NCBI GenBank assembly: GCA_965200245.1
Contig: CBDATS010000011.1
Coordinates: forward strand, 1-23,861
Source: a bacterium
GTDB lineage: Bacteria; UBA8248
DNA: 23,861 nucleotides
Direction of reading: 5' to 3'
Below the pieces are notes generated by a model, which worked only from the letters and a program-made list of their open reading frames with translations, was not told where the DNA came from and did not search any database. Shown piece after piece: positions 513-23,861 of the stretch (positions are counted from its first letter, which is position 1; each line of letters begins with the position of its first letter). A program made the translations under genes and the position numbers.

Positions 513-570
513 AATTGTTGAATTGAGTTCATTCGTGTTTGGGCAACGATTTCTGTCGTTCCAAAATTAT

Positions 571-4399: not shown

Positions 4400-4420
4400 C
4401 GGTATCATGTGCTCAACAGT

Positions 4421-4477
4421 TAGGGCTGAATTCTGCCATCATCCGGACTATAGGGCTGCGAATTCTCTGCCCATCAT
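4421..4477. repeat. Imperfect tandem direct repeat in convergent intergenic region
   Basis: TAGGGCTGAATTCTGCCATCAT (4421-4442) and TAGGGCTGCGAATTCTCTGCCCATCAT (4451-4477). Confidence 0.6.
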
Positions 4478-4532
4478 GATGCTTCTTCAACCGGACCGTT
4501 AACAGATTCACAGAACTAATCCATCTGAAGAA

Positions 4533-5432
4533 TCATGGATCGGTGTAGCGAGCCGCGAAACCTGTTTGCTGTTCAATAACTTGAAAAAGTGAGCAAAGGT
4601 CGCAGTCTCCAAACCCATTTGCGATCGCCTCGGTCAACGCTGACTGTGTTGCATTTCCGATTATCGGAATCATACCAAGTTCGGTCATCATTTGAAGAGC
4701 CAGACGCTGGTCTTTCTGCGCAAGTTTCATTTTGAATCCCGCGTCAAAATTTCCTGAAAAGGCTTTTGTCGACATGGCTCGCGACATGTTTGCATTGGCG
4801 GCATTGGTCGATCCCAAAACCTCTAACATAAGCTCAAGCGTCAATCCATGCCCTATTCCACCGGTGAGAGCTTCCGCAATCAGCGCCAGGGTTCCTTGAT
4901 TGATGTAGTTGTTGACGAGTTTCATTGCGGAACCTGTTCCGTTCGAACCGCAATGCGTAATCCGTTTTGCGAATGCCGCGAGTATGGGTTTGATTTCTAC
5001 GAAGAGATCGAGTTCACAACCAACCATAACAGCCGAATTTCCCTGCCAGGCATCTTCTACGCTTCGGGCAACCGGCGCGTCCGCGACACGAACACCTTTT
5101 TGCGAAAAGTGCCGGTGAAGCTCGCGACTAGTCGCAGGATCGACCGTGCTCAAATCAATGTAAATCGCATCGCATCGAATCGACTTGGTCAATGCAGCGG
5201 AACCTGAAATAGCCGCCTCCAAGACTTCCGGTCTGTCTGGCACCATTGTCATGACAACGTCAGCATCGGCAGCCGCATCTGCTGGTGAGCTCGCCGCCTC
5301 GTATCCCTTGGCTATAAGTCTGTTCAAAGCAGTTTCGAAAATATCATAGCCAACAATGTGATAACCGGCTTTTCCCAATCGGACCGCGATTGGAAAACCC
5401 ATTTGTCCAAGTCCGATGAAGGCGATCTTCAA
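4533..5432 (-). CDS. NAD(P)-dependent beta-hydroxyacid dehydrogenase/reductase (3-hydroxyisobutyrate dehydrogenase family, YihU/sulfolactaldehyde reductase-like)
   Basis: Rossmann motif IAFIGLGQMG, substrate loop DAPVARS, catalytic Lys motif MKLVNNY, and AQKD. TTG start preceded by a GAGGAG RBS. Confidence 0.88.
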   Translation of the reverse strand: MKIAFIGLGQMGFPIAVRLGKAGYHIVGYDIFETALNRLIAKGYEAASSPADAAADADVVMTMVPDRPEVLEAAISGSAALTKSIRCDAIYIDLSTVDPATSRELHRHFSQKGVRVADAPVARSVEDAWQGNSAVMVGCELDLFVEIKPILAAFAKRITHCGSNGTGSAMKLVNNYINQGTLALIAEALTGGIGHGLTLELMLEVLGSTNAANANMSRAMSTKAFSGNFDAGFKMKLAQKDQRLALQMMTELGMIPIIGNATQSALTEAIANGFGDCDLCSLFQVIEQQTGFAARYTDP

Positions 5433-5467
5433 TGCAGTCTCCTCGGGTTTGTTATTCCGCTGACGGA

Positions 5468-6574
5468 TTAATTGACGCGGCGGCCTTGCTCATCGAAGAG
5501 GTGCATCTTTTCGGCATCAATGTGAACCGCGACAAAATCACCCTCCGAAAATTTCGTCAATCCGCTCTCTCGGACGATGATTGGTTGTTCAGCGTCACCG
5601 GTATCAAGGTAAATTAGCGACGCTTCTCCGAGCGCTTCAGTATGAGTTACCTTCAAAGCACCCGGCGCATTTGGTTTCGCGACCTCAAGTGATGTGTGCT
5701 CAGGACGAAAACCAAGCGCGGCAGGCGGAGTAACGGGCGCAGTTCGAGGTCCGGAAAAATTGAGTCCCAACCCATCTCGGGATTCAATGGACGCGGAGTT
5801 TCCTTCACCCGTCATTTTGACATCTATGATGTTCATCTGCGGTGATCCAATGAACTGAGCGGCAAATTGGGTCAAGGGACGATCATAAAGCTCTAGCGGT
5901 TTACCGAACTGCGCCACACTTCCGAATTTCTCGATGTCCGATCCAGTGTTGAGTAGGACGATTTTGTCCGCGAGGGTCATCGCTTCGATTTGATCATGTG
6001 TGACATAAATCATGCCCGCGTTGCCAAACGACTTATGCAGCTTGGCGATTTCCACGCGAGTCTTGCTTCTGAGTTTTGCATCGAGATTGGATAATGGCTC
6101 ATCAAACAAAAATACCCGCGGCTTGCGCACGATCGCTCGGCCTATGGCGACCCTCTGACGCTGGCCGCCGGAAAGCGCCTTTGGACGGCGGTCAAGAAGT
6201 TCTGTCAGGTGCAGAATTTCGGCGGCATGCCGCACCTCCTGCTCGATGACATCAGTGGGTAACTTTGCAAGTTTAAGCGCGAATGCCATGTTCTCGTAGA
6301 CAGTCTTATGCGGATAGAGTGCATAAGACTGGAACACCATCGAGATACCGCGCTTGGACGAGGGTGTTTCGTTCAACAGATCATCCCCAATATAGAGATT
6401 TCCGTCGGTTATTTCCTCGAGTCCGGCGATCATGCGAAGAAGCGTGGATTTGCCGCAGCCCGAAGGACCAAGAAAAACGCAGAATTCTCCATCCGCAATC
6501 TCAAGATTCACATCTTTCAGAACGCGGATATCTCCAAAGAATTTCTGTATGTTTTCCAGTCTAACACCTGCCAT
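5468..6574 (-). CDS. Carbohydrate ABC transporter ATP-binding protein (MalK/UgpC family)
   Basis: Walker A GPSGCGKST, Q-loop MVFQSYALYPH, signature LSGGQRQRVA, Walker B FLFDEPLSNLD, H-loop YVTHDQ, C-terminal TOBE-like region. Confidence 0.95.
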   Translation of the reverse strand: MAGVRLENIQKFFGDIRVLKDVNLEIADGEFCVFLGPSGCGKSTLLRMIAGLEEITDGNLYIGDDLLNETPSSKRGISMVFQSYALYPHKTVYENMAFALKLAKLPTDVIEQEVRHAAEILHLTELLDRRPKALSGGQRQRVAIGRAIVRKPRVFLFDEPLSNLDAKLRSKTRVEIAKLHKSFGNAGMIYVTHDQIEAMTLADKIVLLNTGSDIEKFGSVAQFGKPLELYDRPLTQFAAQFIGSPQMNIIDVKMTGEGNSASIESRDGLGLNFSGPRTAPVTPPAALGFRPEHTSLEVAKPNAPGALKVTHTEALGEASLIYLDTGDAEQPIIVRESGLTKFSEGDFVAVHIDAEKMHLFDEQGRRVN

Positions 6575-6595
6575 GATGGATTCCTGCGTATATCC

Positions 6596-7408
6596 TTAGC
6601 CTTTCACCGCGCCTGTCAAAGCATTGACCAATCGACGCTGAAAAAGAAGCGCGGCGATCATAACCGGAAGCATAGCGACGGTTCCAAATGCCATCACGTT
6701 TCCATAATGAATGCCTTCGTCTGATTTGAAGTTCAGTGCTGCCACGGTGAGCGTGCGAGTTTGGGAACCAGTCGCAATAAACGCGAACGGGAATTCGTTC
6801 CACGAGGAGAGCAAACAGAAAATCCCTGCCGCGGCGATTCCCCCTTTCACAAGTGGCAACGCGACCATATAGAACACCTGCCACTGAGTGCAGCCATCGA
6901 TTTTCGCCGCCTCTTCGACTTCGATCGGCAAATCGCGAAAGAACCCCAGCATCAGCCACAGCACAAAGGGCATATTGAATGCCGCGTGAAGAAAGATTAG
7001 CCCGAAATAGGTGTCGCTCAGCCCTATGCCACGAACAAACAAAAAAAGCGGTGTCATAACCGCAATCGGTGGCACCATCCTGATGACAAATACTGACATA
7101 GCCGTGAAATTGCCGGCCAAATGATATCGCGCGACGGCGTAAGCCGCGATTGTTCCGAGTGCGACCGAAACAATCATGCTGATCACTCCCACGACTACTG
7201 AATTCCACAAATAGGTGGAATATGGCCCGAGCAGGAATACTTCCTTGTAGTTGTCGAGAGTTGGCGCGAAGATCCATTTCGTCGGTTTCGCGAGAATCTC
7301 GGGAAGTGGCTTCAGCGAAATGTTGAACATCATGATGATCGGCATCAACGTGAAAATTATCACGGCAATCATCGCTGCATTTATTAGAATCTTCTTCCAG
7401 ACCGCCAT
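6596..7408 (-). CDS. Carbohydrate ABC transporter permease (MalG-like)
   Basis: Hydrophobic segments with the EAA loop EEAAKIDGC and WNEF motif. The start is placed at MAVWKK (7408), just after the stop of the preceding permease; the ORF track extends to 7441. Confidence 0.92.
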   Translation of the reverse strand: MAVWKKILINAAMIAVIIFTLMPIIMMFNISLKPLPEILAKPTKWIFAPTLDNYKEVFLLGPYSTYLWNSVVVGVISMIVSVALGTIAAYAVARYHLAGNFTAMSVFVIRMVPPIAVMTPLFLFVRGIGLSDTYFGLIFLHAAFNMPFVLWLMLGFFRDLPIEVEEAAKIDGCTQWQVFYMVALPLVKGGIAAAGIFCLLSSWNEFPFAFIATGSQTRTLTVAALNFKSDEGIHYGNVMAFGTVAMLPVMIAALLFQRRLVNALTGAVKG

Positions 7409-7418
7409 CTCTACCGGC

Positions 7419-8372
7419 TCAGTACTTTGTCCGCAGAACACGCATATAAATTAACGCGACCACAAAAATGACGAGGAACGTTAAGAAAGATTGTGCCGAC
7501 GCGTCCCCCATGCGCCAAAATTTGAAGCCGGTGCGATAAACTTCCATTGACACAACGTTGGTCGCAATTCCCGGACCGCCTCCTGTCATGACCAAAATAA
7601 GTCCGAACACACGGTATGCATCAATTGTGTTAGTCAATAGCGTGACTAGAATGACGGGCTTGAGCATGGGAAGGGTTAGGCCCCAGAAAAGCTGAGTTTC
7701 AGTGGCGCCGTCAACTCGCGCCGCGTCGAAGGGGCCTTTCGGCAGAGCTTCAAGCCCGGCAAGTGTGAGCAGCACGACCAGCGGGGTCCATTGCCAAATG
7801 GATGCGATTGAAATCGAAAGCAAAGCGAGACCTGGGTCATTGAGCCAATTGACCGGGCCGATCCCAAACATTTCGAGAAACTGGTTTATAAATCCTAGAT
7901 CCGTGTCAAAGAGATATCCCCAGATCAGGCCGACGACGATGGGCGAGGCCATCAAGGGCATAATGATTATCGATCGGATCAGTGTCACGCCGTAAATTGA
8001 ACGGACATAGTCTGAGTGCAGCATCACCGCGATGGAAATGCCGACGACCATTTGCGTCGTGATTGTGATCAGAAGAAACTTAAATGTGATCCAAAGAGCT
8101 TGCCAATATGATCCATCGGAAAAGATATCAATGAAATTGCCAAAGCCTACCCACCTGCGCCCCTGATAGGGCTTTAGCGGATTGAAATCATAAAAGCTCA
8201 GATGAAGGGAATTGATGATCGGATAGATATAAACAACACCGATGAAAAAAATTGCTGGCGCGAGCAGAATTACGCCAAAGTAATTGTTTTTCAGATATTT
8301 CTTGATTGCGGACATCTTTTGCATCCGCTGCCGACTGCTCAGGGCCTTGGCCGGAATGGTCGCTCCGGCCAA
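7419..8372 (-). CDS. Carbohydrate ABC transporter permease (MalF-like)
   Basis: WVGFGNF, EAA-type loop DAARVDGAT, MTGGGPG, multiple transmembrane segments. The start could be a downstream ATG (e.g. 8315). Confidence 0.92.
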   Translation of the reverse strand: MAGATIPAKALSSRQRMQKMSAIKKYLKNNYFGVILLAPAIFFIGVVYIYPIINSLHLSFYDFNPLKPYQGRRWVGFGNFIDIFSDGSYWQALWITFKFLLITITTQMVVGISIAVMLHSDYVRSIYGVTLIRSIIIMPLMASPIVVGLIWGYLFDTDLGFINQFLEMFGIGPVNWLNDPGLALLSISIASIWQWTPLVVLLTLAGLEALPKGPFDAARVDGATETQLFWGLTLPMLKPVILVTLLTNTIDAYRVFGLILVMTGGGPGIATNVVSMEVYRTGFKFWRMGDASAQSFLTFLVIFVVALIYMRVLRTKY

Positions 8373-8399
8373 GTTTCGTCCCAGAAATTACAGGTGCGG

Positions 8400-9680
8400 T
8401 CAGTAGTAACCAGCATCTTCCATTATTTTTGTCATCTCCGCCGCAGCGTCGTCAAGAGCATCTTTGGCAGATTTCGATCCTGTAATTGCCTCTGAAATCG
8501 CAATACTCAGAACAAAGCTCAACTCATTGCCTTCCGGGATGGGAAAGAGAAGCTTCGCATTGTTAAGAACATCAAGAACATCGGGCAGTGCCGGAAACTT
8601 TGCGACGACTTCTGGATCCTGAAGTGAAGCCGTGTAAGCTCCTTGGCCCACATTCTTGGCAAGACGCAAATCATTAGTCTCATTCGTTGCCCATGCTAGG
8701 AACTCATATGCCGCCTCTTCATTGGAAGTGTTTCTCGGGATAACGAGGCCCCAGCCGCCGAGAATAGCGGTCGCGGTCGCAGGCGTCTCCTTCGAGCGAA
8801 GCGGGAAGCGCCCATATCCCATATTGGCAGCATGCGGATTCACGTCTGGATTGCCTAACCCGAGTGCGGCCACGGACTCGAATGTGGCCATAGCGATGCG
8901 TCCGTCTATCATCCCTGCTCGATTTTGGTCAATTGTGTAGCTGGCCACACCGTCCGGCGTAACTTTGTCATTGAGAATTAAATCGACCCAGAATTCGAGA
9001 GCCGCTACACCTTCGTCGCTATTGATTGTGATCCTTTTATCGGCATCCCAGACATCACCACCGGCGGCGAAGAGATAAGGAACCCAATTCAGGACATTCC
9101 AAGCGCCGGATGCCGCCGACATCGACATACCAGCTTGTTCATCGGTGTTCAGAGCATTCGCGGCGGCGCGGAGCTCATCCCAGGTTTCGGGCGGTGCGAG
9201 GCCCGCTTCATCCAAAAGGTCTTTGCGATAAAAAAACATCCTCGTGCCGGCGTTGATGGGCATCGAAAACTGCTTGCCATCGAATTTATGGGCATTCAGT
9301 GCGGCCTGCACCATTCCATCGAAGTTGATCTTGCCGCCATATTTTGAATCGAGCTCACCGATATCATGGACAAATCCACTCGCAGCATATCCCGGAACCC
9401 ATTCGATCACATCGGCTATGACATCGAATGATCCTGAACTCGCTGTCATTTCGAGAACGGAGCGTTCGGAGAGCACATCGTAACCGACCACGGTGAAATT
9501 CACTTTGATGCCTGATGCTTCGGTGAATTCGTCAATATTGCCTTGGATGACATCTTTGAAAGGATGCCCACCGAGCATCACATTGATTTCTTCGGCGTTA
9601 GCGTCACTCATAGGTAGCAAAGCTGCCATCAAGGCGCTTGCCACAATTTTTCCCGATAAGGATATCTTGGTAAAGTTCAT
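8400..9680 (-). CDS. Carbohydrate ABC transporter periplasmic solute-binding protein (family 1)
   Basis: N-terminal signal peptide (...LLPMSDANA/EE), FFYRKDLLDEAGLAPPETWDEL, LGGWGLVIP, AAYEFLAW; AGGGAG RBS; first gene of the operon. Confidence 0.93.
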   Translation of the reverse strand: MNFTKISLSGKIVASALMAALLPMSDANAEEINVMLGGHPFKDVIQGNIDEFTEASGIKVNFTVVGYDVLSERSVLEMTASSGSFDVIADVIEWVPGYAASGFVHDIGELDSKYGGKINFDGMVQAALNAHKFDGKQFSMPINAGTRMFFYRKDLLDEAGLAPPETWDELRAAANALNTDEQAGMSMSAASGAWNVLNWVPYLFAAGGDVWDADKRITINSDEGVAALEFWVDLILNDKVTPDGVASYTIDQNRAGMIDGRIAMATFESVAALGLGNPDVNPHAANMGYGRFPLRSKETPATATAILGGWGLVIPRNTSNEEAAYEFLAWATNETNDLRLAKNVGQGAYTASLQDPEVVAKFPALPDVLDVLNNAKLLFPIPEGNELSFVLSIAISEAITGSKSAKDALDDAAAEMTKIMEDAGYY

Positions 9681-9778
9681 TAGAAATTTTCTCCCTGTCA
9701 GCGTTGAATTTGGTCTCTACCTGAGCAGCCCCACTCGTGGAGTTTAACCTTTCGTAACATAAGAATTCAAAAATGGGA

Positions 9779-9788
9779 ATACCGGTAT
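9779..9788. promoter_or_regulatory. Palindrome ATACCGGTAT, candidate operator for the divergent GntR regulator
   Basis: Perfect 10-bp palindrome in AT-rich DNA about 100 bp upstream of the binding-protein start. Short GT/AC-centred palindromes are typical GntR/FadR operators. Function is inferred. Confidence 0.5.
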
Positions 9789-10184
9789 ACGGATAAATTT
9801 TTTTGAATCTGTCACATCAATTTGAGCGTTTTCCGGCACAGTGTCGGAATGTCACGGGTATCCGACTTCCCACCGATTGGGCATTCGCAGAACGACGCAT
9901 AAGGTCATCGGAAACGTAAACTGACCGCCTGTTAAGGGGAACATCGGCATGACTGCCGACTTAAGGTCATTAAATCTCAGCTTTTTTCCGCTGTGGAAGG
10001 TTCGCCGAACATCTGCGGCGTGATTGTGAATCGGCTGCGGGCATGCGACGAATCAGAGTAACGAAAACGGTCGGTCGGTCAAATCAACTTGCGTTAAATT
10101 CAGGTCTGGATACAAAAGACGTGCCCCCAGATCTAATGCAGCGGTCGGATGCCTCTCGCAAAGTTGGAGTTCTAGGAGATTTGA

Positions 10185-10910
10185 ATGCCAAGACACCCCG
10201 CTGATCATGTGCCAACGGAGTTTGGCTCGTTTGCAATAAACCCGGGACAGCCGATCGTCCCGCAGCTCTATGCGGCGCTGCGCGGGAAGATTTTAACACT
10301 GAAGCTCAAGCCGGGTGACGCAATTAGCGAGTCCGAACTTGCCTTGGCCTGCGGTGTCAGCCGCACGCCTGCTCGTCAAGTTATCAAACAGCTCGTGGAC
10401 GAGAATTTGCTTGTGGTTTTCGCGAGCCGGGGCACCTACGTTTCAAAAATAGACTCGGCACGGCTTAAAGATGCACTATTGATCCGCAGACGCCTGGAGC
10501 CAGTGCTGGCGCGTGAATGTGCGCTAGTCTCCGAACGAGCTAGCCTTGTGAAAAACTTGAAGGTCTTGCTTCAGCAACAGGATGACGCCCTGGCAGAAGG
10601 GACTGTGGATCGGGCTTACAAGATTGATGCCGCCTTTCACGAAGCGATCGCAGCAAGGGTCAGCGAGGGTCTGATTTGGCAAACCATCCGGCAAGCGAGA
10701 ACCGAGGCGGACAGGCTTCATGCATTGAGTCGAAACCGCGCGGACTCGCTGCAAAATGCACTTCAAGAACACCATAATGTCGTTGCCTGCATTGAGGCTG
10801 GCTACGCGTCGGAGAGCTTTATATCTATGGAGCGTCACATGGCGACGAACGAGGAGGCGTTTGAAAATATCCTGCGCGAGCATCCGGATCTATTTTTGAA
10901 ACAAGATTAA
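10185..10910 (+). CDS. GntR-family transcriptional regulator with FCD domain (RspR/YdfH-like)
   Basis: wHTH LKPGDAISESELALACGVSRTP...RGTYV; FCD motifs DAAFHEAI and EHHNVVACI; N-terminal INPGQPIVPQLY resembles E. coli YdfH/RspR as I recall it; AGGAG RBS. Confidence 0.92.
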   Translation: MPRHPADHVPTEFGSFAINPGQPIVPQLYAALRGKILTLKLKPGDAISESELALACGVSRTPARQVIKQLVDENLLVVFASRGTYVSKIDSARLKDALLIRRRLEPVLARECALVSERASLVKNLKVLLQQQDDALAEGTVDRAYKIDAAFHEAIAARVSEGLIWQTIRQARTEADRLHALSRNRADSLQNALQEHHNVVACIEAGYASESFISMERHMATNEEAFENILREHPDLFLKQD

Positions 10911-11119
10911 TAAACAGAACCTGAAGAAGCACGGACTAAACTGAAAAACCATCACAGGAAGCCGCCTGTCACTTTTCTTATTCGAAACGATTTATCCGGT
11001 TTTTCAGAGGACGTTTTGACATCTGATCTGATCACGCAATGTCGTTTCTGCTTGCAAGCAATTCGGCGACCACCAGACAATCCGCATCACATATTGGGAC
11101 AATTTTTCCGCACCTGCAC

Positions 11120-14100
11120 TGGTTCATCCCCGCGTGTGTGGGGAACGCCTCCACTTCCAATTCGGCTTGCCGCCGTTGCTCGGTTCATCCCCGCGTGTGT
11201 GGGGAACGCAACTTCTAGGAAGAAAGCTGACGATCAGCGGCCGGTTCATCCCCGCGTGTGTGGGGAACGCTCGTTAGGCGTGTATTCGTCATTAATGCGT
11301 TCAGGTTCATCCCCGCGTGTGTGGGGAACGCGGGCATCGTCCATCGTCCGGCAGCGGGTCCAGGGCTTCATCCCCGCGTGTGTGGGGAACGCATACTGCA
11401 TCAGATGGACATACGGCGGGACAACGGTTCATCCCCGCGTGTGTGGGGAACGCCGTCCGGACGGTAGTTCCATCGGCCTCGCGGACGGTTCATCCCCGCG
11501 TGTGTGGGGAACGCAGCTCCAGAGCAAATGACCTCGCCACACCATACGGTTCATCCCCGCGTGTGTGGGGAACGCCGTCCGGACGGTAGTTCCATCGGCC
11601 TCGACGGTTCATCCCCGCGTGTGTGGGGAACGCGCTCCAGAGCAAATGACCTCGCCACACCATACGGTTCATCCCCGCGTGTGTGGGGAACGCGGCGCGG
11701 TCGAATACCGTGCGGTCATGGCGGTTCATCCCCGCGTGTGTGGGGAACGCTTCAAACGCCAGTTTTTCAAACTGCTCAAACGCGGTTCATCCCCGCGTGT
11801 GTGGGGAACGCCGCTTCCCGCGTGAAATATATTCGATAAGCGTCGGTTCATCCCCGCGTGTGTGGGGAACGCGCTCGGGAATTGGTCATTCCTCTAATGC
11901 GGGAAGGTTCATCCCCGCGTGTGTGGGGAACGCTCCGCACTTCCACATTCGGCCTGCCGTTGCTGCGGTTCATCCCCGCGTGTGTGGGGAACGCCTACCG
12001 CTACAAATATTAATTTATCCGATGGGCGGTTCATCCCCGCGTGTGTGGGGAACGCATAATCAAAAAGTTCGGCTTCGATAATCAAATCGGTTCATCCCCG
12101 CGTGTGTGGGGAACGCTCTTGGAAACTGCCCGGCCATGACGCTGCGGACGGTTCATCCCCGCGTGTGTGGGGAACGCCGGGATTAAGCGATGCCCAGTGT
12201 TTCAAGGCTCGGTTCATCCCCGCGTGTGTGGGGAACGCCTGGTATGAGACGAAAAGGCTGGGCAGACCGGCGGTTCATCCCCGCGTGTGTGGGGAACGCG
12301 CTATAGCAAGAAAACAATGAATCGTAGGCAGCGGTTCATCCCCGCGTGTGTGGGGAACGCTGGCTACCGACGGCAGACGGATTTACGCGCTGCGGTTCAT
12401 CCCCGCGTGTGTGGGGAACGCTCAAGTCGCTCGTTAATCGCATCCATAGCGGCCGGTTCATCCCCGCGTGTGTGGGGAACGCACGGCAATAGCTATCAAT
12501 GACATCAAAGATATCGGTTCATCCCCGCGTGTGTGGGGAACGCCGTTAACCGTTTTTTTGCCCTTAGCGGAATCGCGGTTCATCCCCGCGTGTGTGGGGA
12601 ACGCGGTTACCTCGAATGAGTGCGTTGATGTGGTCTCGGTTCATCCCCGCGTGTGTGGGGAACGCTGGCAGGCTTGGAATGGCGTGTGGTGGAAAGGCGG
12701 TTCATCCCCGCGTGTGTGGGGAACGCTCACTAGGATTGCAGCCATTCGGTGATAGTTGCGGTTCATCCCCGCGTGTGTGGGGAACGCAGCGATGTCCGTC
12801 GGCCAGTCGGTCGGGATGCCGGTTCATCCCCGCGTGTGTGGGGAACGCATGCCGGCTTTGGCCGCGTTCCGCATTTTGTGCGGTTCATCCCCGCGTGTGT
12901 GGGGAACGCCTGCAAACTATGTTGTATTGATTGCGGATAACCGGTTCATCCCCGCGTGTGTGGGGAACGCTGCAAACGTGGGTAGCAGACACAGAAAGGA
13001 CGCGGTTCATCCCCGCGTGTGTGGGGAACGCTAGGCATTCGACTTTATTAATTCGTCAGGCCGCGGTTCATCCCCGCGTGTGTGGGGAACGCCGGCCAGT
13101 GCGCATCGTCCGTTGGGTCAAAGGCGGTTCATCCCCGCGTGTGTGGGGAACGCTCCAGCCGGCCGGCACAAAATCATCCATCGCTCGGTTCATCCCCGCG
13201 TGTGTGGGGAACGCTCGGTCCGGCCCTCGTAATCTCGCCCAGCTCGCGGTTCATCCCCGCGTGTGTGGGGAACGCCCGGCGATCTCGCCGAAAGAGCAGC
13301 TGTCGCACGGTTCATCCCCGCGTGTGTGGGGAACGCCGATCAAAACCATGGTCATGATGTCCGAGGACCGGTTCATCCCCGCGTGTGTGGGGAACGCTCC
13401 AGTTCGATTTTTTTTGCATCGGGCATTCCGGTTCATCCCCGCGTGTGTGGGGAACGCTGCCGATACCGATAAGCTGATTTCGGTCCGAAAAGACCGCCAG
13501 CCGGTTCATCCCCGCGTGTGTGGGGAACGCTGCCGATACCGATAAGCTGATTTCGGTTTCGCCGGTTCATCCCCGCGTGTGTGGGGAACGCCCCGCTGCC
13601 ACCCCGGAGGCGCGATGTTGAGGCGGTTCATCCCCGCGTGTGTGGGGAACGCGCGGACGCTCGATGCTCCGGACGTGATGGAGGCGGTTCATCCCCGCGT
13701 GTGTGGGGAACGCGGATCAGCATTGGTGCCGCAATGCGCGCACGGCGGTTCATCCCCGCGTGTGTGGGGAACGCCCGCAATCTGCATTTAAACCAGCGTG
13801 TTGAAACGGTTCATCCCCGCGTGTGTGGGGAACGCTTGTTTTGCCGCTTTATGGATGATCGCTTTGTCGGTTCATCCCCGCGTGTGTGGGGAACGCCCAA
13901 GTTCCAGAAGCGAATGTTATTAAAGCCGCGGTTCATCCCCGCGTGTGTGGGGAACGCGCGCTGCATAAGGAAATAAATAAAATGACGCCAGGTTCATCCC
14001 CGCGTGTGTGGGGAACGCAGTTTGGCCTCTGTAAAAGCGTTTTTTACATGCGGTTCATCCCCGCGTGTGTGGGGAACGCGGTATTCGGATTAACGCAAAC

Positions 14101-17100
14101 CCACGCGTTTCCGGTTCATCCCCGCGTGTGTGGGGAACGCATTTCCCATAGCCACAGTCCATGAATTATGAACGGTTCATCCCCGCGTGTGTGGGGAACG
14201 CGCGAACATGCGTTTGATCCTGCCGCTGTTCCTCGGTTCATCCCCGCGTGTGTGGGGAACGCCCGAATGCGGCCAGTTTATTCAATTCGGATTTCGGTTC
14301 ATCCCCGCGTGTGTGGGGAACGCCTTCATTAGTGGGGTCGAATAATGCCGAGTAACGGTTCATCCCCGCGTGTGTGGGGAACGCCCTGCCGGTGTCGGGG
14401 TCGATGATGATGACAACGGTTCATCCCCGCGTGTGTGGGGAACGCTGGTCTATGAAGTATTGTTGAATTTCAACCAGCGGTTCATCCCCGCGTGTGTGGG
14501 GAACGCATTCAAGGCGCCGTTGATTATTGCCGATTGCGCGGTTCATCCCCGCGTGTGTGGGGAACGCTTCGGATTCAGTCAACTCCCGATAATAGCCATC
14601 GGTTCATCCCCGCGTGTGTGGGGAACGCTGCCGCCGGGCGTCGCGTTGTTGGCTGCGTTTCGGTTCATCCCCGCGTGTGTGGGGAACGCTGAATGTGGCC
14701 ATTAGATCAATCCCCGTCCGACGGTTCATCCCCGCGTGTGTGGGGAACGCCTATATTGGCAAAAGTTCCATTTGCGTTCGCCCGGTTCATCCCCGCGTGT
14801 GTGGGGAACGCGCGGCCAAGCAGCTCGGGTTGAAATTCGACCGCGGTTCATCCCCGCGTGTGTGGGGAACGCTCTGGTCGACAAGGTCAGAAAGGATCGC
14901 CAGCCGGTTCATCCCCGCGTGTGTGGGGAACGCCAACCGAAGCCGAATGGACCGCCGCTACTCAGCGGTTCATCCCCGCGTGTGTGGGGAACGCTTTGCC
15001 GGCATCAACCGCAAAACGATCTAATTCGGTTCATCCCCGCGTGTGTGGGGAACGCAGCAGAGGAAACCACAATGCCTGATAGTATCACGGTTCATCCCCG
15101 CGTGTGTGGGGAACGCCGTTATGGCGGCGTATGAATAGCGTAGCATACCGGTTCATCCCCGCGTGTGTGGGGAACGCTCGGAACGAAGCGTTCTCGGCTA
15201 CCCCCAGCCCGGTTCATCCCCGCGTGTGTGGGGAACGCAGCGACCATGGCCGACCGGGAATCCATCATAACGGTTCATCCCCGCGTGTGTGGGGAACGCG
15301 AAAGCGTTGCCGAACTCCTGCTGCCGGTTGACGGTTCATCCCCGCGTGTGTGGGGAACGCGAAAGCGTTGCCGAACTCCTGCTGCCGGTTGACGGTTCAT
15401 CCCCGCGTGTGTGGGGAACGCTTATGAATTTACCGAATTGGCAGACGCGGAGTCGGTTCATCCCCGCGTGTGTGGGGAACGCATACGCTTGCCACGGGTA
15501 TTTGTCGCTATTGGCGGTTCATCCCCGCGTGTGTGGGGAACGCTCTTAGGGCAATTCAAAACGGAGAGGTATAAACGGTTCATCCCCGCGTGTGTGGGGA
15601 ACGCATCCGCGGCCCTATCAAAATTGTTCTCTATTTCGGTTCATCCCCGCGTGTGTGGGGAACGCTCGATGCGACAATCAGGAATGTGGCTGACCTGCGG
15701 TTCATCCCCGCGTGTGTGGGGAACGCGATCCTGCAGCTGATCGGCCGCCCAGTCGTAGCGGTTCATCCCCGCGTGTGTGGGGAACGCTAGGCAAAGCCGT
15801 GTTTCCAGCAGCCCGAAGACGGTTCATCCCCGCGTGTGTGGGGAACGCGATAACTCCCGATATGCAAGCATAACAAGTTTCGGTTCATCCCCGCGTGTGT
15901 GGGGAACGCGATTCGGTATTCATAGCGGGCGTTAAAAACGGCGGTTCATCCCCGCGTGTGTGGGGAACGCAATACTCCGTTTCTACGACGACAACGACAA
16001 CGCGGTTCATCCCCGCGTGTGTGGGGAACGCTCTCTCTTCCGGAGTCAGGCTCGCCCAGTGGGCGGTTCATCCCCGCGTGTGTGGGGAACGCAAAAATCA
16101 GATTGCGGCATAAGCGGATGTTTTCGGTTCATCCCCGCGTGGTGTGGGGAACGCGTTGTCAACTGTAAATTGACGGCCTGGCCAAACGGTTCATCCCCGC
16201 GTGTGTGGGGAACGCGCAGTCGCCTTGAATGACGTTTTGGCAGTCGCCGGTTCATCCCCGCGTGTGTGGGGAACGCGGTTGAATGTTCCGCCGCTGTAAA
16301 TCCGCATGCGGTTCATCCCCGCGTGTGTGGGGAACGCGTTTTTTTGATCAGGCATAAGTCAGCGATGCTCGGTTCATCCCCGCGTGTGTGGGGAACGCAT
16401 CCCTATATCGTCAGCCAATTCGGCGAGGATCGGTTCATCCCCGCGTGTGTGGGGAACGCGATCTCCGTGCCCACCGAGCGCGTCTCTTCTTCGGTTCATC
16501 CCCGCGTGTGTGGGGAACGCGGATCGTTGCCGTTGAAGGTTGGCAGGTTCAGCGGTTCATCCCCGCGTGTGTGGGGAACGCAGTAAAGGAAGCATACGCA
16601 ATCAATTAAAAAACGGTTCATCCCCGCGTGTGTGGGGAACGCTCCGGGATTGGCTTTGCGCCATTGCTTTTCGTCGGTTCATCCCCGCGTGTGTGGGGAA
16701 CGCGGCGCTCCGGTCCGGCTGTCAGGAACATCCTGCGGTTCATCCCCGCGTGTGTGGGGAACGCAGACATTTCCGGGAGTTCACCGGACTCCAAAGCGGT
16801 TCATCCCCGCGTGTGTGGGGAACGCCTGAATGATTCGGGACGGCATGTGAACGGCTCCGGTTCATCCCCGCGTGTGTGGGGAACGCGACGAGGGCACGTC
16901 CCTCTCCCAGCTCTCCTGCGGTTCATCCCCGCGTGTGTGGGGAACGCTGTCCATAAGCGCAAGAGCTTCGTCGCCCTGTCGGTTCATCCCCGCGTGTGTG
17001 GGGAACGCCCGGATTCAGAATGCGGAAGAAAGTCTCATCGCGGTTCATCCCCGCGTGTGTGGGGAACGCGAATCAGCCCGAATCCGGTTACCACTGGCTA

Positions 17101-18289
17101 GCGGTTCATCCCCGCGTGTGTGGGGAACGCCTGGCCCAGCGGCGCAGCTGATTCTGCCGCTGCGGTTCATCCCCGCGTGTGTGGGGAACGCTGCTCGTAT
17201 TATCGGAAGGCGAATGCGAAAGCCGGTTCATCCCCGCGTGTGTGGGGAACGCGATCAGTTCCGAGCAACACGGTTCCGCTTTCGCGGTTCATCCCCGCGT
17301 GTGTGGGGAACGCATCCTTACATCATTACCGATTTCAACACCGACCGGTTCATCCCCGCGTGTGTGGGGAACGCGCATTTTTTTGAGCCAGCTGATGAAT
17401 TGATTTCGGTTCATCCCCGCGTGTGTGGGGAACGCGGCGCATTGCTCCAATACTCGTTAACATGCGCCGGTTCATCCCCGCGTGTGTGGGGAACGCCCCG
17501 CGTGCACCGGCCATGCCGTCCACGCCGCCGGTTCATCCCCGCGTGTGTGGGGAACGCAATCATCAAATAAGCCTTGCGGAATCCCGGGGCGGTTCATCCC
17601 CGCGTGTGTGGGGAACGCGCGCCGGTTACTGGATTCCCGTAGACTGCGTCCGGTTCATCCCCGCGTGTGTGGGGAACGCTGTCGCGGGGGTCTTGTTTCT
17701 TTTTGCCGGTGCGGTTCATCCCCGCGTGTGTGGGGAACGCTCCGCGTTGGCCGCAATCGAGTCCAATTTATCCGGTTCATCCCCGCGTGTGTGGGGAACG
17801 CTTCCGCTGCTCCACCTGCATCTGCATCTGCGCCGGTTCATCCCCGCGTGTGTGGGGAACGCAATGTCGGTTTCCATATGCACTATGTGCCGGACGGTTC
17901 ATCCCCGCGTGTGTGGGGAACGCATTCACCCGGACCGGAAAGCTGAACGACGCCACGGTTCATCCCCGCGTGTGTGGGGAACGCTCCCGCTCATGCCAAT
18001 CGGCGTTGACGTTGACTGGTTCATCCCCGCGTGTGTGGGGAACGCACTATCGGCAAATCAACCCGAGTCCCGGCGACCGGTTCATCCCCGCGTGTGTGGG
18101 GAACGCTGCCGGTTTATTTTTCTCCAGCCATCGCGCGACGGTTCATCCCCGCGTGTGTGGGGAACGCTCGAATCAGTTTTAAAACCATTTTGTTTATTCC
18201 GGTTCATCCCCGCGTGTGTGGGGAACGCCCCGACCAATACGGCCACGTCGATTTTTCTGACGGTTCATCCCCGCGTGTGTGGGGAACGC
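11120..18289 (-). CRISPR. Type I-E CRISPR array, leader-distal segment (118 repeats)
   Basis: 29-bp repeat CGGTTCATCCCCGCGTGTGTGGGGAACGC with a 61-bp period and mostly 32-bp spacers. Its reverse complement GCGTTCCCCACACACGCGGGGATGAACCG has the I-E layout with an ATGAACCG handle. Variant repeats cluster at the left (trailer) end. Confidence 0.97.
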
Positions 18290-18397
18290 CAACTAGTGTC
18301 TGCTGGAAAAGTCGATTCGACCGTTCTAAGCCTTACCGTGCATAGAATTTTCTGCTGTTTGTGGTTGCGAAGATTCAGAAGATATGGCATAAAAGTG

Positions 18398-18437
18398 GAA
18401 GATTCGCCCAGATATTGTGTCAAATAGGCGAATCTTC
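18398..18437. repeat. 11-bp perfect inverted repeat upstream of the transposase RBS
   Basis: GAAGATTCGCC (18398-18408) and GGCGAATCTTC (18427-18437). Confidence 0.7.
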
Positions 18438-18453
18438 AACAAAAGGTAATGCC

Positions 18454-19881
18454 ATGAGAACCACATTTGAGAAAAATCTTCAACTGTTTCATGTTCCGAT
18501 CGAGGAACTTCAGATCAACGAGCAGTCGCGGGACGACATTCCCCGTCTGCTGAGCGGCCTGAAGGCGCTTTACTGCGACGAGCAGTCCCGTCACGCGGTT
18601 TTGGCTCACATGGAGGCGAAGCATTCGGAACGGGCCAGCCTTGAGAACGGCCGTCCGGGCATGAGTTTCTGGCAGGTTCTTGTGCTTGGCATTTTGAAGC
18701 AGGGGCTCAACTGCGACTTCGACCGTCTTGAGGAGATGTGCAGGCATGCCGAAATCCGGATCATGCTGCAGTGTCCGGATTATCATGATCAGTTCAAGTC
18801 TCCCCGGATCGCGTACAATCTGACGGAGCTTCTCGACGAGGATACGCTTCGGTTCGTCAACAATAAAATCATGCAGCTCGGTCACAGGATCGTGAAGCAC
18901 CGCGGTCCGGTCGATGTGAAGGCGGATTCGTTTGTTGTGGAGACCGACGTCGAACATCCGGTCGACCACCGTCTGCTTTCCGAAGCGGTGGGCTGCGCGG
19001 TGCGCGAGACCGGCAGGCTGTGCGCCCGCAGGAACATCAAAGGCTGGCGGCAGCACAAGCATCTGAAGGCCAAGCTCGGGAACCGCTCCAGCCGGCTGGC
19101 GCGGCGGCTCCGCCGGACAAGCGTTGACAGCTCCGCGCAGGTCCGGGACCTGCTGGAGCAGTCCGCTTCGCTGATCAAGAGGGTGAGGGAGACTCTTCTT
19201 GATCTGCCGGAACCGGTTTTGGCCGCCGAGCGGCCGGCTGTCGGGGCGATCTGGAGATACTGCGCTATGGCGGCTAAGCTTTCGGGCCATGTCCGCACCC
19301 GCCTGATCGACGGAGACATGGTTCCGCACGGGGATAAGATCTTCTCGGTGCACGAGCCGCACACGAGGTGGATATCGAAGGGCAAGGCCGGTCGGCCGGT
19401 CGAACTCGGCGTGCCGGTCTCCATCGCGGTGGACCGGCTGGGCTACAAGCTGGACTGGGAGATCCAGTGGACCGGCGGCGACCGGGAAAGCATCATTCCT
19501 CTGGCCGAACGGATCCGCGCGCGGTTCGGGCGGATCGGCGTCTTCAGCCTGGACAAAGGGTATTGGTCGCCCGGCATCCTGGCGGCCCTTGGCGATATCG
19601 CCGAAATGCCGGTGATGAACAAAAAAGGCCGCCGCGGCAAAGCGGACCGGGAGCGGGAAGCCGCCCCCGGCTATGCCGAAGCGCGAAGGGCCCATTCCGC
19701 GGTCGAATCCGCGATCAACGAACTGGAGCATAAAGGCCTGGACCGGATCCTGTCCTACGGCGCGGACGGCTTCGCCCGCATGACCGGCCTTGCCGTCTGC
19801 GCCGCCAACATCCAGAAAATCGGAACCACGATCAACGCCTGGCGGTGCAAAGGCCGGGGCCCGCCGCCGCTTCCGGCCTGA
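18454..19881 (+). CDS. DDE transposase (475 aa), ISNCY/IS5-like
   Basis: SRDDIPRLL, GRPGMSFWQVLVLG, KIFSVHEPHTRWISKGKAG; candidate catalytic residues in ADSFVVETD, SLDKGYWS and HSAVESAINELE. ATG at 18454 follows AAAGGT; the ORF track starts at 18361. Confidence 0.92.
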   Translation: MRTTFEKNLQLFHVPIEELQINEQSRDDIPRLLSGLKALYCDEQSRHAVLAHMEAKHSERASLENGRPGMSFWQVLVLGILKQGLNCDFDRLEEMCRHAEIRIMLQCPDYHDQFKSPRIAYNLTELLDEDTLRFVNNKIMQLGHRIVKHRGPVDVKADSFVVETDVEHPVDHRLLSEAVGCAVRETGRLCARRNIKGWRQHKHLKAKLGNRSSRLARRLRRTSVDSSAQVRDLLEQSASLIKRVRETLLDLPEPVLAAERPAVGAIWRYCAMAAKLSGHVRTRLIDGDMVPHGDKIFSVHEPHTRWISKGKAGRPVELGVPVSIAVDRLGYKLDWEIQWTGGDRESIIPLAERIRARFGRIGVFSLDKGYWSPGILAALGDIAEMPVMNKKGRRGKADREREAAPGYAEARRAHSAVESAINELEHKGLDRILSYGADGFARMTGLAVCAANIQKIGTTINAWRCKGRGPPPLPA

Positions 19882-20137
19882 CGGCCCTCCCCTCCGCAGC
19901 GGAAATCACCGCCGCCCATTCGGGCCACAGGACAGGTGTGCGCGGAATCCGCCTCGACGCACTAAAACCGCCGGCAGACCCGTCGAAATGTCGGAAATCA
20001 GCCGGAAATCCAGCCGCGGAGACCCGAAAGCCGCCGCATCCAGTCTCCGTCAACCGCCGTTGAACTGTTCTAAAATGCAGAATCAGGGGGTTTTTAAACT
20101 GGCACCAACTATCTGAACACCATTACATGGCGGAGGA

Positions 20138-23100
20138 CGGTTCATCCCCGCGTGTGTGGGGAACGCATCCCCGGTCATTTACTAGATTAACTATAAAACG
20201 GTTCATCCCCGCGTGTGTGGGGAACGCGGTTTTTCGGCGAATTCCGGCAGCGCGCCGCTCGGTTCATCCCCGCGTGTGTGGGGAACGCCCATGTCCGGTA
20301 AATAGCGCGAGCTCTGAAGGCGGTTCATCCCCGCGTGTGTGGGGAACGCTAACGTCGTCCGCTGGGAGTTCCGAGACGGATCGGTTCATCCCCGCGTGTG
20401 TGGGGAACGCCCCCATGATTTTGGTAAGGTATTCCACCACCTCGGTTCATCCCCGCGTGTGTGGGGAACGCTCGAAACCGGCAAAGAACACCTGAAATAT
20501 TACCGGTTCATCCCCGCGTGTGTGGGGAACGCACCGATTTCGGTGCCGACCGTCCGGCTTTCCTCGGTTCATCCCCGCGTGTGTGGGGAACGCCGGCATT
20601 GTCGATTTGATATATGCCGACCCTCCGGTTCATCCCCGCGTGTGTGGGGAACGCCTCAGGTCGTCAAGGCAATCGCCAGGAATTTTCGGTTCATCCCCGC
20701 GTGTGTGGGGAACGCTGTCTGATTTCGCCTGTGGCCAGATTCCAGCACGGTTCATCCCCGCGTGTGTGGGGAACGCCACTCCCCACACGCTTTCCGTTAC
20801 TGCTAACGCGGTTCATCCCCGCGTGTGTGGGGAACGCCGCACAGCCTAGACCTTCCGCACGGAGTCAGACGGTTCATCCCCGCGTGTGTGGGGAACGCCT
20901 TTTCACAGATTTAACGCTGTGAGCGCCGAACGGTTCATCCCCGCGTGTGTGGGGAACGCACCACAGGCAATGCACCCGGTGCAGGAATCACCGGTTCATC
21001 CCCGCGTGTGTGGGGAACGCAGCACGAATGCGCCGGCGGCGAGCAGCCAGAGCGGTTCATCCCCGCGTGTGTGGGGAACGCCGGCTGTGGTCGTTGTCGC
21101 ATTGCCCGGAATGCGGTTCATCCCCGCGTGTGTGGGGAACGCGCCGCATACCTCACAAAAGCCCTGCAACCCGTCGGTTCATCCCCGCGTGTGTGGGGAA
21201 CGCTTCGTATGTTTTCGATCGTATTTTCCATCGGTCGGTTCATCCCCGCGTGTGTGGGGAACGCTGATCCATACATTCAAAGATCGCATTGGGAAGCGGT
21301 TCATCCCCGCGTGTGTGGGGAACGCTATCATCGGGGTCGCGAAAACTGAGATTGGCGCGGTTCATCCCCGCGTGTGTGGGGAACGCCCGCTTGCAGTGCC
21401 GATCGAGCGCATAGACGGCGGTTCATCCCCGCGTGTGTGGGGAACGCCTCTTCCGCCCAAAAAAACCACTGCTGCCCTGCGGTTCATCCCCGCGTGTGTG
21501 GGGAACGCTCCGATAGTAGACGCCGGTCCGAGCCAGTAGCCGGTTCATCCCCGCGTGTGTGGGGAACGCCCTTACTTACTCACCATTATAAGCTCGGTGA
21601 CCGGTTCATCCCCGCGTGTGTGGGGAACGCGAGCGACCAGGTTCCGGCGACCACGTTCCTGACGGTTCATCCCCGCGTGTGTGGGGAACGCTTCCGCATA
21701 GCGTTTTAACCCCGGCCAGAATCCGGTTCATCCCCGCGTGTGTGGGGAACGCCATCCAGCCGTTCAGGGCTCGGAAACTCATCACGGTTCATCCCCGCGT
21801 GTGTGGGGAACGCGCTTGCCGCGCCGGACGTAAGAGCTTGGACTTCGGTTCATCCCCGCGTGTGTGGGGAACGCAGCGTGTTCGGTGTCGCGTTTAGCGG
21901 CTCGTTCGGTTCATCCCCGCGTGTGTGGGGAACGCGCTTGCCGCGCCGGACGTAAGAGCTTGGACTTCGGTTCATCCCCGCGTGTGTGGGGAACGCTCCC
22001 ATTCCGTTAAGGTCGGTGCGCGGAAATTCGGTTCATCCCCGCGTGTGTGGGGAACGCTGTGGGTGTTTTCCTGTGTTGCTGCTGCGCTGCGGTTCATCCC
22101 CGCGTGTGTGGGGAACGCATGGGTGGCAGTCAGGGTAGGAACTGCTGGAGCGGTTCATCCCCGCGTGTGTGGGGAACGCTTCCAGACTCTTCCACTGGTG
22201 CAACCACTCAGCGGTTCATCCCCGCGTGTGTGGGGAACGCACGACAATAGACCGGCGGCGGTCATCCACAATCGGTTCATCCCCGCGTGTGTGGGGAACG
22301 CATCCGCACTGCCTATGCAATGGGCGACGTTGTCGGTTCATCCCCGCGTGTGTGGGGAACGCAAAAGAAATCATCGAAACTGTGAGCGACCAGACGGTTC
22401 ATCCCCGCGTGTGTGGGGAACGCATAGCCGAGGACGCCGCCGTCGCTGTCGAGGACGGTTCATCCCCGCGTGTGTGGGGAACGCCCGCATAGTAGATCAT
22501 AGCGTTGTCTCCTATTCGGTTCATCCCCGCGTGTGTGGGGAACGCGCTTTTGCTGGATTCGGAGTCGGAGAATTGGGCGGTTCATCCCCGCGTGTGTGGG
22601 GAACGCCCAGATCGCGGGTCAGGTAGCGCTCGGCGGTCCGGTTCATCCCCGCGTGTGTGGGGAACGCAGTCACATAAGCGGTCGTCGAACTCCAAGCTCC
22701 GGTTCATCCCCGCGTGTGTGGGGAACGCTACCCTGCCAACCATCCCGGGTAATGCTACCACGGTTCATCCCCGCGTGTGTGGGGAACGCTGGCCAGCCTA
22801 GCCAAAACCGGCGGCTCTCTCCGGTTCATCCCCGCGTGTGTGGGGAACGCCGACTCCGGCCAAACGAATTGCGCGTTTTCGTCGGTTCATCCCCGCGTGT
22901 GTGGGGAACGCTTTGATAAGTTCGTAGTGAGGCTTACCCGAAGCGGTTCATCCCCGCGTGTGTGGGGAACGCGCGTCAATATCATTGCAGGAACATTGGC
23001 AGGGCGGTTCATCCCCGCGTGTGTGGGGAACGCGGTGCCGACCGATAACGTGTCTATATCAAGCGCGGTTCATCCCCGCGTGTGTGGGGAACGCATTATC

Positions 23101-23861
23101 AGCCGGAGAAGGCCGCGGAACGCGTCCGGTTCATCCCCGCGTGTGTGGGGAACGCATGGCCGCAGTGCCGGGCGCGACCAAAAATTCCGGTTCATCCCCG
23201 CGTGTGTGGGGAACGCCCGCAAGCTGGGGTCAAGCGGGATCAGAGCTCCGGTTCATCCCCGCGTGTGTGGGGAACGCGCCGATTTCGGTTCCAACGCTGC
23301 GGGTTTCCTCGGTTCATCCCCGCGTGTGTGGGGAACGCTGGAACGCCTGACTCGACAGTCAGAACCTGTCCGGTTCATCCCCGCGTGTGTGGGGAACGCG
23401 CTGCCACCTGTTGGCGCAGAAGTCGGAATGCGGTTCATCCCCGCGTGTGTGGGGAACGCTCTTGTGGTCAGGCGTGTTATGGATTATTGAACGGTTCATC
23501 CCCGCGTGTGTGGGGAACGCCTCCAGCCATTGCATTGCTGCATTCAATTGTTCGGTTCATCCCCGCGTGTGTGGGGAACGCTGGACCGCCGGACTGGAAG
23601 GGGAACGATCGGTCGGTTCATCCCCGCGTGTGTGGGGAACGCCGCTATGAATACCGAATCGACTAGCTCATGCGCGGTTCATCCCCGCGTGTGTGGGGAA
23701 CGCCAAAAACCATTTTTTTACTCCGTTTCTGTTAACGGTTCATCCCCGCGTGTGTGGGGAACGCATTTTTTTGCGGACATCGGACATTGTGCCGTCCGGT
23801 TCATCCCCGCGTGTGTGGGGAACGCATGCACGGTCGCGTTTTGCGCAATCCATCTATCGGT
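20138..23861 (-). CRISPR. Type I-E CRISPR array, leader-proximal segment (61 complete repeats plus a partial at 23858; continues beyond the window)
   Basis: Same 29-bp repeat and 61-bp period as the left segment; the window ends inside a repeat (CGGT). Confidence 0.97.

What the first reader, a model, noticed from the sequence alone, without database searches (positions are those of the whole stretch)
16460..23309. Three spacers hit the same peptide motif E(T/S)R(S/T)VGTEI(G) in differently coded variants, and imply an AAG PAM
Seen, on the minus strand including the repeat-terminal G: 16460-16491 reads EEETRSVGTEI, 20533-20564 reads EESRTVGTEIG, and 23278-23309 reads EETRSVGTEIG. The first and third encode an identical ETRSVGTEI with 8 of 9 codons different (including Ser TCG versus AGC); the second and third are 25/32 identical. 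The 16460 spacer is shifted 3 nt and shows AAG at the position of the others' PAM, the canonical I-E PAM. Inference: a conserved gene of a persistent, diverse invader family was sampled at the same site across about 80 acquisition events, on both sides of the IS. I cannot name the target protein.
Basis: partly seen in the sequence, partly recalled or inferred. Interest (0 to 1): 0.7.

Follow-up and report, generated by a model that had tools for sequence, protein, structure and literature searches.

The report
Recurrent CRISPR spacers against one conserved site
Several spacers of a very large type I-E CRISPR array were taken independently from the same spot of a conserved invader gene in differently coded variants, which is a real but ordinary record of repeated infection, and the invader itself could not be found in any collection searched.

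Summary
On the minus strand, with the repeat-terminal G, spacers 16460-16491, 20533-20564 and 23278-23309 read EEETRSVGTEI, EESRTVGTEIG and EETRSVGTEIG.

- **Corrections:** 7 of 9 ETRSVGTEI codons differ, not 8. A fourth member lies on contig C9 of the same genome, 2 nt from the 16460 spacer.
- **Chance:** 0 of 300 shuffles gave any spacer pair sharing an 8- or 9-residue peptide.
- **System:** the array is type I-E. A full I-E cas operon and leader precede the same repeat on C9.
- **Frame:** differences fall at codon position 3 (8 of 10 for 16460 vs 23278), so the target is coding. An antisense frame, ISVPT[ELV]R[VL]S, is nearly as well conserved.
- **PAM:** AAG (16460) and AGG (C9) sit at the PAM position of the other register. 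Overlapping spacers elsewhere give AAG, AGG, GAG and ATG.
- **Generality:** this is the largest of 15 re-sampled site families among 334 unique spacers.
- **Target:** no protospacer was found in phages, plasmids, IMG/VR, JGI metagenomes, GTDB genomes, the own genome or 50 relatives.

This is a known phenomenon and of modest interest.

The parts
11120..23861 (-). Type I-E CRISPR array: 178 repeats of 29 nt (crRNA sense GCGTTCCCCACACACGCGGGGATGAACCG), mostly 32-nt spacers. The trailer end is at 11120, where the repeats are degenerate. The array runs off the contig at 23861.
   Evidence: Orientation comes from contig C9, where a complete I-E cas operon and an AT-rich leader precede the same repeat.
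16460..16491 (-). Spacer no. 91 from the contig end, the oldest of the three. It reads EEETRSVGTEI, in a register 3 nt upstream of the other two.
20533..20564 (-). Spacer no. 54. It reads EESRTVGTEIG.
23278..23309 (-). Spacer no. 9, the youngest of the three. It reads EETRSVGTEIG.
18290..20137 (+). A spacer split by an insertion sequence. The transposase ORF is 18361-19881 (506 aa, ISNCY family). CAACTA is present at both junctions, and the two spacer pieces add up to 32 nt.
   Evidence: (NF033593, 327.8 bits, cut-off 325).

Best explanation
The window holds the trailer-side part of a very large type I-E CRISPR array. At least four times, the Cas1-Cas2 adaptation machinery of this lineage took a 33-bp prespacer (32 nt plus the last PAM base) from the same short stretch of a protein-coding gene of an invader. 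Each time the donor was a different sequence variant.

- **Site:** it most likely encodes ...E-E-(E)-[TS]-R-[ST]-V-G-T-E-I-G... on the strand identical to the crRNA.
- **Two registers:** the run of Glu codons (GAR GAR GAR) makes in-frame A[AG]G triplets 3 nt apart. This offers two adjacent I-E PAMs and explains the two registers.
- **Why the site persists:** the peptide is constrained, so both the site and its PAM survive in diverged variants. Synonymous changes accumulate: 7 to 11 of 30-32 positions, including seed position 7 between 20533 and 23278.
- **Why it is re-sampled:** with that many mismatches an older spacer no longer gives interference against the new variant, and a fresh spacer from the same spot is selected. 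Priming by the mismatched older spacer may help.

**Shown:** the array type and orientation, the homology of the four spacers, the codon-periodic differences, independent acquisition, and AAG/AGG at the PAM position in the shifted members.

**Inferred:** the sense frame, the foreign origin, the role of priming or hot-spot preference, and loss of interference by the older spacers.
For: **System.** Repeat period is 61 nt, with a 29-nt repeat and 32-nt spacers. On C9, Cas3, Cse1, Cse2, Cas7e, Cas5e, Cas6e, Cas1e and Cas2e all pass the NCBIfam cut-offs directly upstream of an AT-rich leader and the same repeat.

**Homology and coding.**
- Peptides as.
- 10 nt differences of 30 for 16460 vs 23278, 8 of them at codon position 3. 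The sense frame is identical in 8 of 10 columns, and its only changes are S/T swaps.
- 0 of 300 shuffles reach a shared 8-mer.

**Independence.** The C9 copy differs from the 16460 spacer at 2 positions, both third-codon positions. The 80 other spacers shared between C9 and C11 are all identical. The C9 copy sits among C9-only leader-side spacers.

**PAM.**
- AAG and AGG lie at the PAM position of the second register.
- Overlap-derived triplets elsewhere are AAG, AGG (two sites), GAG and ATG, against GTG, GTT and CGA.
- The binomial P for 5 or more of 8 sites is 4.5e-5.
- E. coli I-E uses ATG, AAG, AGG and GAG, and inserts the last G of the motif together with the spacer (PMC4027179, passages).

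**Generality.** 21 spacer pairs share a peptide of 7 or more residues among 334 unique spacers, against 0.09 in 100 shuffles. They form 15 families, and this is the largest once 20533 is joined through its 6-mers.
Against: **No protospacer was found.**
- Whole-array megablast against 50,697 phage records and 72,556 plasmids gave no match.
- Degenerate peptide patterns gave 0 hits in IMG/VR, plus one chance hit lying in another frame.
- They gave 0 hits and then 2 chance hits in GTDB genome contigs.
- They gave 1 chance hit in JGI metagenomes.
- None was found in the own genome outside the arrays, nor in 50 genomes of the same phylum with one mismatch allowed.

Foreign origin, the true PAM and the gene are therefore not seen.

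**The frame is not settled.** The antisense frame ISVPT[ELV]R[VL]S is open and identical in 7 of 9 columns. I prefer the sense frame for two reasons: its changes are conservative, and the three GAR codons vary only A/G. That preference is about 4:1 and is my judgement, not a test.

**Same-site pairs are partly expected.** When hundreds of spacers are drawn from a limited set of PAM sites, some coincidences occur by chance alone. So the family need not mark a special hot spot.
Confidence: 0.8

Rival explanations
1. The mechanism is the same, but the target gene is read on the opposite strand. The conserved peptide would then be (P)ISVPT[ELV]R[VL]SS, and the crRNAs would be antisense to the coding strand.
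For: Frame -1 has no stops and is identical in 7 of 9 columns across the four spacers. Its third codon positions coincide with those of the sense frame, so the periodicity does not separate the two.
Against: It requires E/V/L at one residue flanked by invariant ones, whereas the sense frame needs only S/T swaps. Two sites that would be four-fold degenerate in this frame show only pyrimidines in all four spacers, as GAR codons on the other strand would demand. One IMG/VR scan with this frame's pattern gave a single hit, and it lay in a different frame of a real gene.
Confidence: 0.15
2. The variants are paralogous copies of one motif inside a single invader genome (a repeated domain or a gene family). 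They would not then come from different invader lineages met at different times.
For: Nothing in the spacers distinguishes paralogues from orthologues, and no target genome is available.
Against: The spacers are spread over 82 array units and two array haplotypes. The 16460/C9 pair differs by only two synonymous changes, which looks like population micro-diversity. The other 14 re-sampled families show the same style of variation.
Confidence: 0.1
3. The similar spacers are descendants of one acquired spacer that was duplicated within the array and then mutated.
For: The array does contain exact and truncated duplicates, for example 15300/15361, 21814/21936 and 11454-11720.
Against: 80 of 80 other spacers shared by the two array haplotypes carry no change at all. 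The family differs at 6 to 11 positions of 30 in a codon-periodic way and includes a 3-nt register shift. Mutation of non-coding array DNA would not produce that pattern.
Confidence: 0.02
4. Chance resemblance among many spacers.
For: 176 spacers in six frames give many comparisons. About 0.7 pairs sharing a 6-mer are expected by chance.
Against: 0 of 300 shuffles gave a shared 8- or 9-mer, whereas a 10-mer is shared here. A third and a fourth spacer also align in the same frame.
Confidence: 0.01

Closest known systems
Escherichia coli K-12 type I-E CRISPR-Cas adaptation (AAG acquisition motif, with the last G carried into the array)
   Same: 29-nt repeat ending ...AACCG, 32-nt spacers, and the same eight cas gene families. 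The triplets inferred at PAM positions are AAG, AGG, GAG and ATG, the four that function in E. coli (PMC4027179, passages). Repeat copies ending in T, A or C instead of G exist, as expected if the last base comes from the donor.
   Different: The array is far larger: at least 178 repeats here, 144 on C9 and 101 on C13. No protospacer is known, so the PAM is read only from homologous or overlapping spacers.
Independently acquired matching spacers in a Sulfolobus islandicus population (Held et al. 2010, PMC2946923; passages read)
   Same: Spacer pairs that match each other with an offset and/or SNPs, sit in different array contexts, and are read as separate acquisitions from nearly the same place of a shared virus or plasmid pool. 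That paper reports 41 such pairs.
   Different: Here the matches lie within one bacterial I-E array lineage and its sister haplotype. They reach much deeper divergence (synonymous sites largely changed, peptide kept) and form a family of four.
Primed adaptation in type I-E systems
   Same: All four spacers are on the same strand, the PAM is AAG-like, and the older spacers are mismatched to the later variants. These are the conditions under which priming operates. The hallmarks are given in PMC4027179. Tolerance of many mismatches is recalled, not read.
   Different: Priming cannot be demonstrated from sequence alone. Re-use of the very same protospacer is not a specific prediction of priming.

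Membership tests
Type I-E CRISPR-Cas array | Direct repeats of about 29 nt with the I-E type sequence, regularly spaced by about 32-nt unique spacers | tested here: met
   178 repeats with a 61-nt period. 172 copies are identical and the variants differ mostly in the last base.
Type I-E CRISPR-Cas array | Associated cas3, cse1, cse2, cas7e, cas5e, cas6e, cas1e and cas2e genes | tested here: met
   They are not in the window. They lie on contig C9 (10223-18628), directly upstream of the leader and the same repeat. All eight pass the NCBIfam cut-offs for I-E models.
Type I-E CRISPR-Cas array | 5'-AAG-like PAM next to the protospacers | tested here: inconclusive
   No protospacer was found. Indirectly, AAG/AGG lie at the PAM position in the shifted family members, and 5 of 8 overlap-derived sites give AAG/AGG/GAG/ATG.
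Type I-E CRISPR-Cas array | Spacers match foreign DNA (phage, plasmid) | tested here: inconclusive
   No match in any collection searched. There is also no self match.
Independent re-acquisition of one protospacer site | Similar spacers carrying SNPs and/or an offset, in different array contexts, not explained by inheritance | tested here: met
   There is a 3-nt offset and 2 to 11 differences. The flanking spacers are unrelated. The 80 other shared spacers are identical between the haplotypes.
Primed adaptation | New spacers drawn from the same replicon and strand as a mismatched priming spacer | not testable with these tools
   All four spacers are on one strand, but the replicon is unknown.

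The most novel reading that the evidence does not exclude
The four spacers, like the whole repertoire of 334 unique spacers, record a long arms race with a virus or plasmid family that is absent from every public collection searched. The host belongs to a phylum with only 51 species-level genomes. The conserved peptide EE[TS]R[ST]VGTEI(G), next to tandem A[AG]G PAMs, would then be a durable acquisition hot spot. It could serve as a tag to fish this unknown invader family out of environmental data.
Probability: 0.4. Interest if true: 0.45.

Novelty: new member of a known kind. Interest (0 to 1): 0.3.

Why it matters
The case shows how protein-level constraint keeps a CRISPR target site and its PAM available across diverged invader variants, while synonymous drift makes older spacers obsolete. 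The arrays are unusually long: at least 178, 144 and 101 repeats. The 15 families of re-sampled sites could be used to estimate how small the invader pool of this rarely sampled lineage is. The phenomenon itself, independent spacers from the same place, has been described before. Nothing here changes how CRISPR adaptation is understood.

Tried and rejected
**Protospacer searches, all negative or chance**
- Single spacer against phages in distant mode: only partial matches, E of 1 or more.
- Whole C11, C9 and C13 arrays against phages, and the C11 array against plasmids, by megablast: no match.
- IMG/VR, 8 scans:
  - EE[TS]R[ST]VGTEI: 0 hits.
  - Pattern of invariant bases: 0.
  - E[TS]R[ST]VGTEIG: 0.
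  - TR[ST]VGTEIG: 0.
  - Antisense-frame pattern: 1 hit, which lies in another frame of a 349-aa gene and is chance.
  - Three other re-sampled or neighbouring sites, EHKVAPRQTIG, QGFCEVCGD and GIVDLIYADPP: 0 each.
- GTDB genome contigs: 0 hits. A second pattern gave 2 chance hits, ERRTVGTEIG in a 56-codon open frame and ECRWVGTEIG.
- JGI metagenomes: 1 chance hit, EESSSVGTEI, on the strand opposite the long open frames of a 1.4-kb contig.
- Own genome: only the four spacers. No self-target among all 420 spacers; the best hits were 17-22 nt.
- Family, order, class and phylum, which is 50 other genomes in all: no pattern hit with up to 1 mismatch. Searching with 3.7 kb and 7.2 kb of the array as DNA found only other arrays and noise.

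- Short-peptide protein search was not possible. The search for homologous proteins needs at least 40 aa, and the other protein tools need 20-30 aa.

**Literature**
- Text search for the peptide: 0 papers.
- Text search for the repeats: 1 paper, holding only the C13-type repeat in Zymomonas and not informative.

**Not done**
Full report
**What is in the window.** The window is the whole of contig C11 of a 3.68-Mb, 15-contig genome with 95.8% completeness and 8.1% contamination.

From 11120 to the contig end at 23861 it carries 178 copies of a 29-nt repeat, spaced by mostly 32-nt spacers. The repeats at the 11120 end are degenerate. No cas genes are in the window. Positions 1-11000 hold a GmrSD-type restriction gene, a TPP enzyme, a dehydrogenase, a sugar ABC transporter and a GntR regulator.

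The same repeat, in reverse complement, follows an AT-rich leader and a complete cas3-cse1-cse2-cas7-cas5-cas6e-cas1-cas2 operon on contig C9. All eight proteins pass the NCBIfam type I-E cut-offs. So the array is type I-E, crRNA sense is the window's minus strand, 11120 is the trailer end, and younger spacers lie towards 23861.

A third array on C13 has 101 repeats of a different I-E repeat and its own I-E operon.

- 20533 vs 23278 is 25/32 identical, against a background maximum of 20.
- 16460 aligns with both at an offset of 3 nt.
- Over the 30 aligned bases, 16460 and 23278 differ at 10 positions, 8 of them third codon positions. The peptide EETRSVGTEI is identical in both. The Ser codons are TCG and AGC.
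- In 300 shuffles of the 173 unique window spacers, no pair shared an 8- or 9-residue peptide in any of the six frames.

**A fourth member and two array haplotypes.** A degenerate pattern for the peptide found one more copy in the genome, at C9:21039-21070. It is in the register of 16460 and differs from it at two third-codon positions.

Comparing the arrays shows that C9 spacers 57-143 are C11 spacers 21-161 in the same order, with some blocks missing or added. In particular C11 no. 38-92, including the IS, is absent from C9. The leader-side spacers of each contig are private to it. These are two haplotypes of one locus, consistent with the contamination figure.

Eighty shared spacers are identical. 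The only near-match is the family member, and it sits among C9-private young spacers. It was therefore acquired anew from a slightly different donor, not inherited. The C11 haplotype holds three members (no. 9, 54 and 91 from the contig end). They lie on both sides of a spacer split by an ISNCY-family insertion sequence, with CAACTA duplicated at the junctions.

**Reading frame.** The codon-periodic differences show a protein-coding target.

The sense frame gives EE[TS]R[ST]VGTEI, with 8 of 10 columns invariant and only S/T swaps. Thr codons sit exactly where a TCG-to-AGC serine switch needs intermediates.

The antisense frame -1 shares the same third positions. It gives ISVPT[ELV]R[VL]S, with 7 of 9 columns invariant.

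I favour the sense frame at roughly 4:1, because its replacements are conservative and the three GAR codons vary only between A and G. The sequence alone does not settle it.

**PAM.** In 16460 the bases at the PAM position of the other register are AAG. In the C9 copy they are AGG. The base aligned with the repeat-terminal G of the other register is G in both, which fits a donor origin for that base.

Ten same-strand overlapping spacer pairs elsewhere in the three arrays allow the same trick. Nine of them give a full upstream triplet:
- AAG in 1 pair.
- AGG in 3 pairs, covering 2 sites.
- GAG in 1 pair.
- ATG in 1 pair.
- GTG, GTT and CGA in 1 pair each.

That is 5 of 8 sites within the set of four triplets, with binomial P = 4.5e-5. 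These are the four triplets that function in E. coli I-E, where the last G of the motif enters the array with the spacer (PMC4027179, passages read).

The run of Glu codons explains the two registers: GAR GAR GAR places A[AG]G triplets 3 nt apart. All of this is indirect, because the triplets are read in homologous variants and not in the actual donors.

**Not a singular case.** Among 334 unique spacers of the three arrays (417 spacers of at most 46 nt), 21 pairs share a peptide of 7 or more residues, against 0.09 in shuffles. They form 15 families.
- Three of the families look like truncated duplicates.
- The others show offsets, SNPs and synonymous divergence. Examples are FMSDTRTVSF with AGA vs CGT, the same-register pairs C13_12/23 and C13_49/59, and the overlapping C9_39/C9_76 next to the family member.

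With 20533 joined through its 6-mers, the finding's family is the largest, at four members.

Matching, independently acquired spacers with offsets and SNPs were described in Sulfolobus islandicus, with 41 pairs (PMC2946923, passages read).

Some same-site coincidences are also expected simply because hundreds of spacers are drawn from a limited number of PAM sites. That is my estimate and was not computed against a real target.

**The target.** I could not find it. The searches were:
- Megablast of the whole arrays against phage and plasmid records.
- Eight IMG/VR scans.
- Two scans of GTDB genome contigs.
- One scan of JGI metagenomes.
- The own genome.
- All 50 other genomes of the phylum.

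Together they gave nothing but four chance hits, each in a wrong frame or with wrong residues.

The neighbouring spacer 20594-20625 reads GIVDLIYADP(P) on the plus strand. From memory, this resembles motif IV of DNA methyltransferases common on phages and plasmids. That is a hint of a mobile-element target and nothing more.

**Verdict.** The finding is a correct and neatly read example of repeated spacer acquisition from one conserved coding site of an unidentified invader, by a type I-E system with an AAG-like PAM. The mechanism is ordinary CRISPR biology.

What stands out is the size of the arrays, the depth of divergence among the sampled variants, and the complete absence of the invader from public collections.

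Noticed in passing
G000 contigs C9:18766-27612 and C11 (window) 11120-23861: These are two haplotypes of the same array. C9 spacers 57-143 equal C11 spacers 21-161 in order, with block differences, and each has private leader-side spacers. The C9 haplotype lacks C11 no. 38-92, including the IS.
   Followed up: yes
window 18290-20137: An ISNCY-family insertion sequence (transposase ORF 18361-19881) sits inside a spacer, with CAACTA at both junctions. No second copy was found in the assembly (best blastn-short hits were 17-22 nt).
   Followed up: partly
G000 contig C13:8569-23338: A second complete type I-E system with a different repeat (GTGTTCCCCGCCCACGCGGGGATGAACCG) and 101 repeats. It contains its own re-sampled spacer families.
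   Followed up: partly
window 20594-20625 (+): The spacer next to the 20533 member reads GIVDLIYADP(P) on the plus strand. From memory this resembles the DPPY motif region of DNA methyltransferases. The pattern had no hit in IMG/VR.
   Followed up: partly
window 571-2670 (-): A 699-aa protein with a GmrSD N-terminal domain (PF03235, E = 4e-25). This is a type IV restriction-like gene on the same contig as the array.
   Followed up: no
window 11454-11720, 13398-13562, 15300-15392, 16093-16186, 21814-21967: Array irregularities: exact adjacent or near-adjacent duplicate spacers, truncated duplicates of 28-31 nt near the trailer, a 44-nt hybrid spacer, and a 94-nt unit that hides a repeat with a 1-nt insertion.
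   Followed up: partly
window repeats at 11120, 11303, 11905, 13990, 18017; also C9 and C13: Repeat copies whose last base in crRNA sense is T, A or C instead of G. This is expected if that base comes from the donor DNA, for example through slipped acquisitions.
   Followed up: no
G000 contig C9:18795-19106: The six leader-proximal units of the C9 array have aberrant spacer lengths of 19-41 nt. These may be assembly errors or decay at the leader end.
   Followed up: no
The genome search tallies: The genome's phylum holds only 51 species-level genomes in one class. 22 further species share its genus. Arrays with I-E-type repeats occur in G005, G008, G030, G045 and G047.
   Followed up: no
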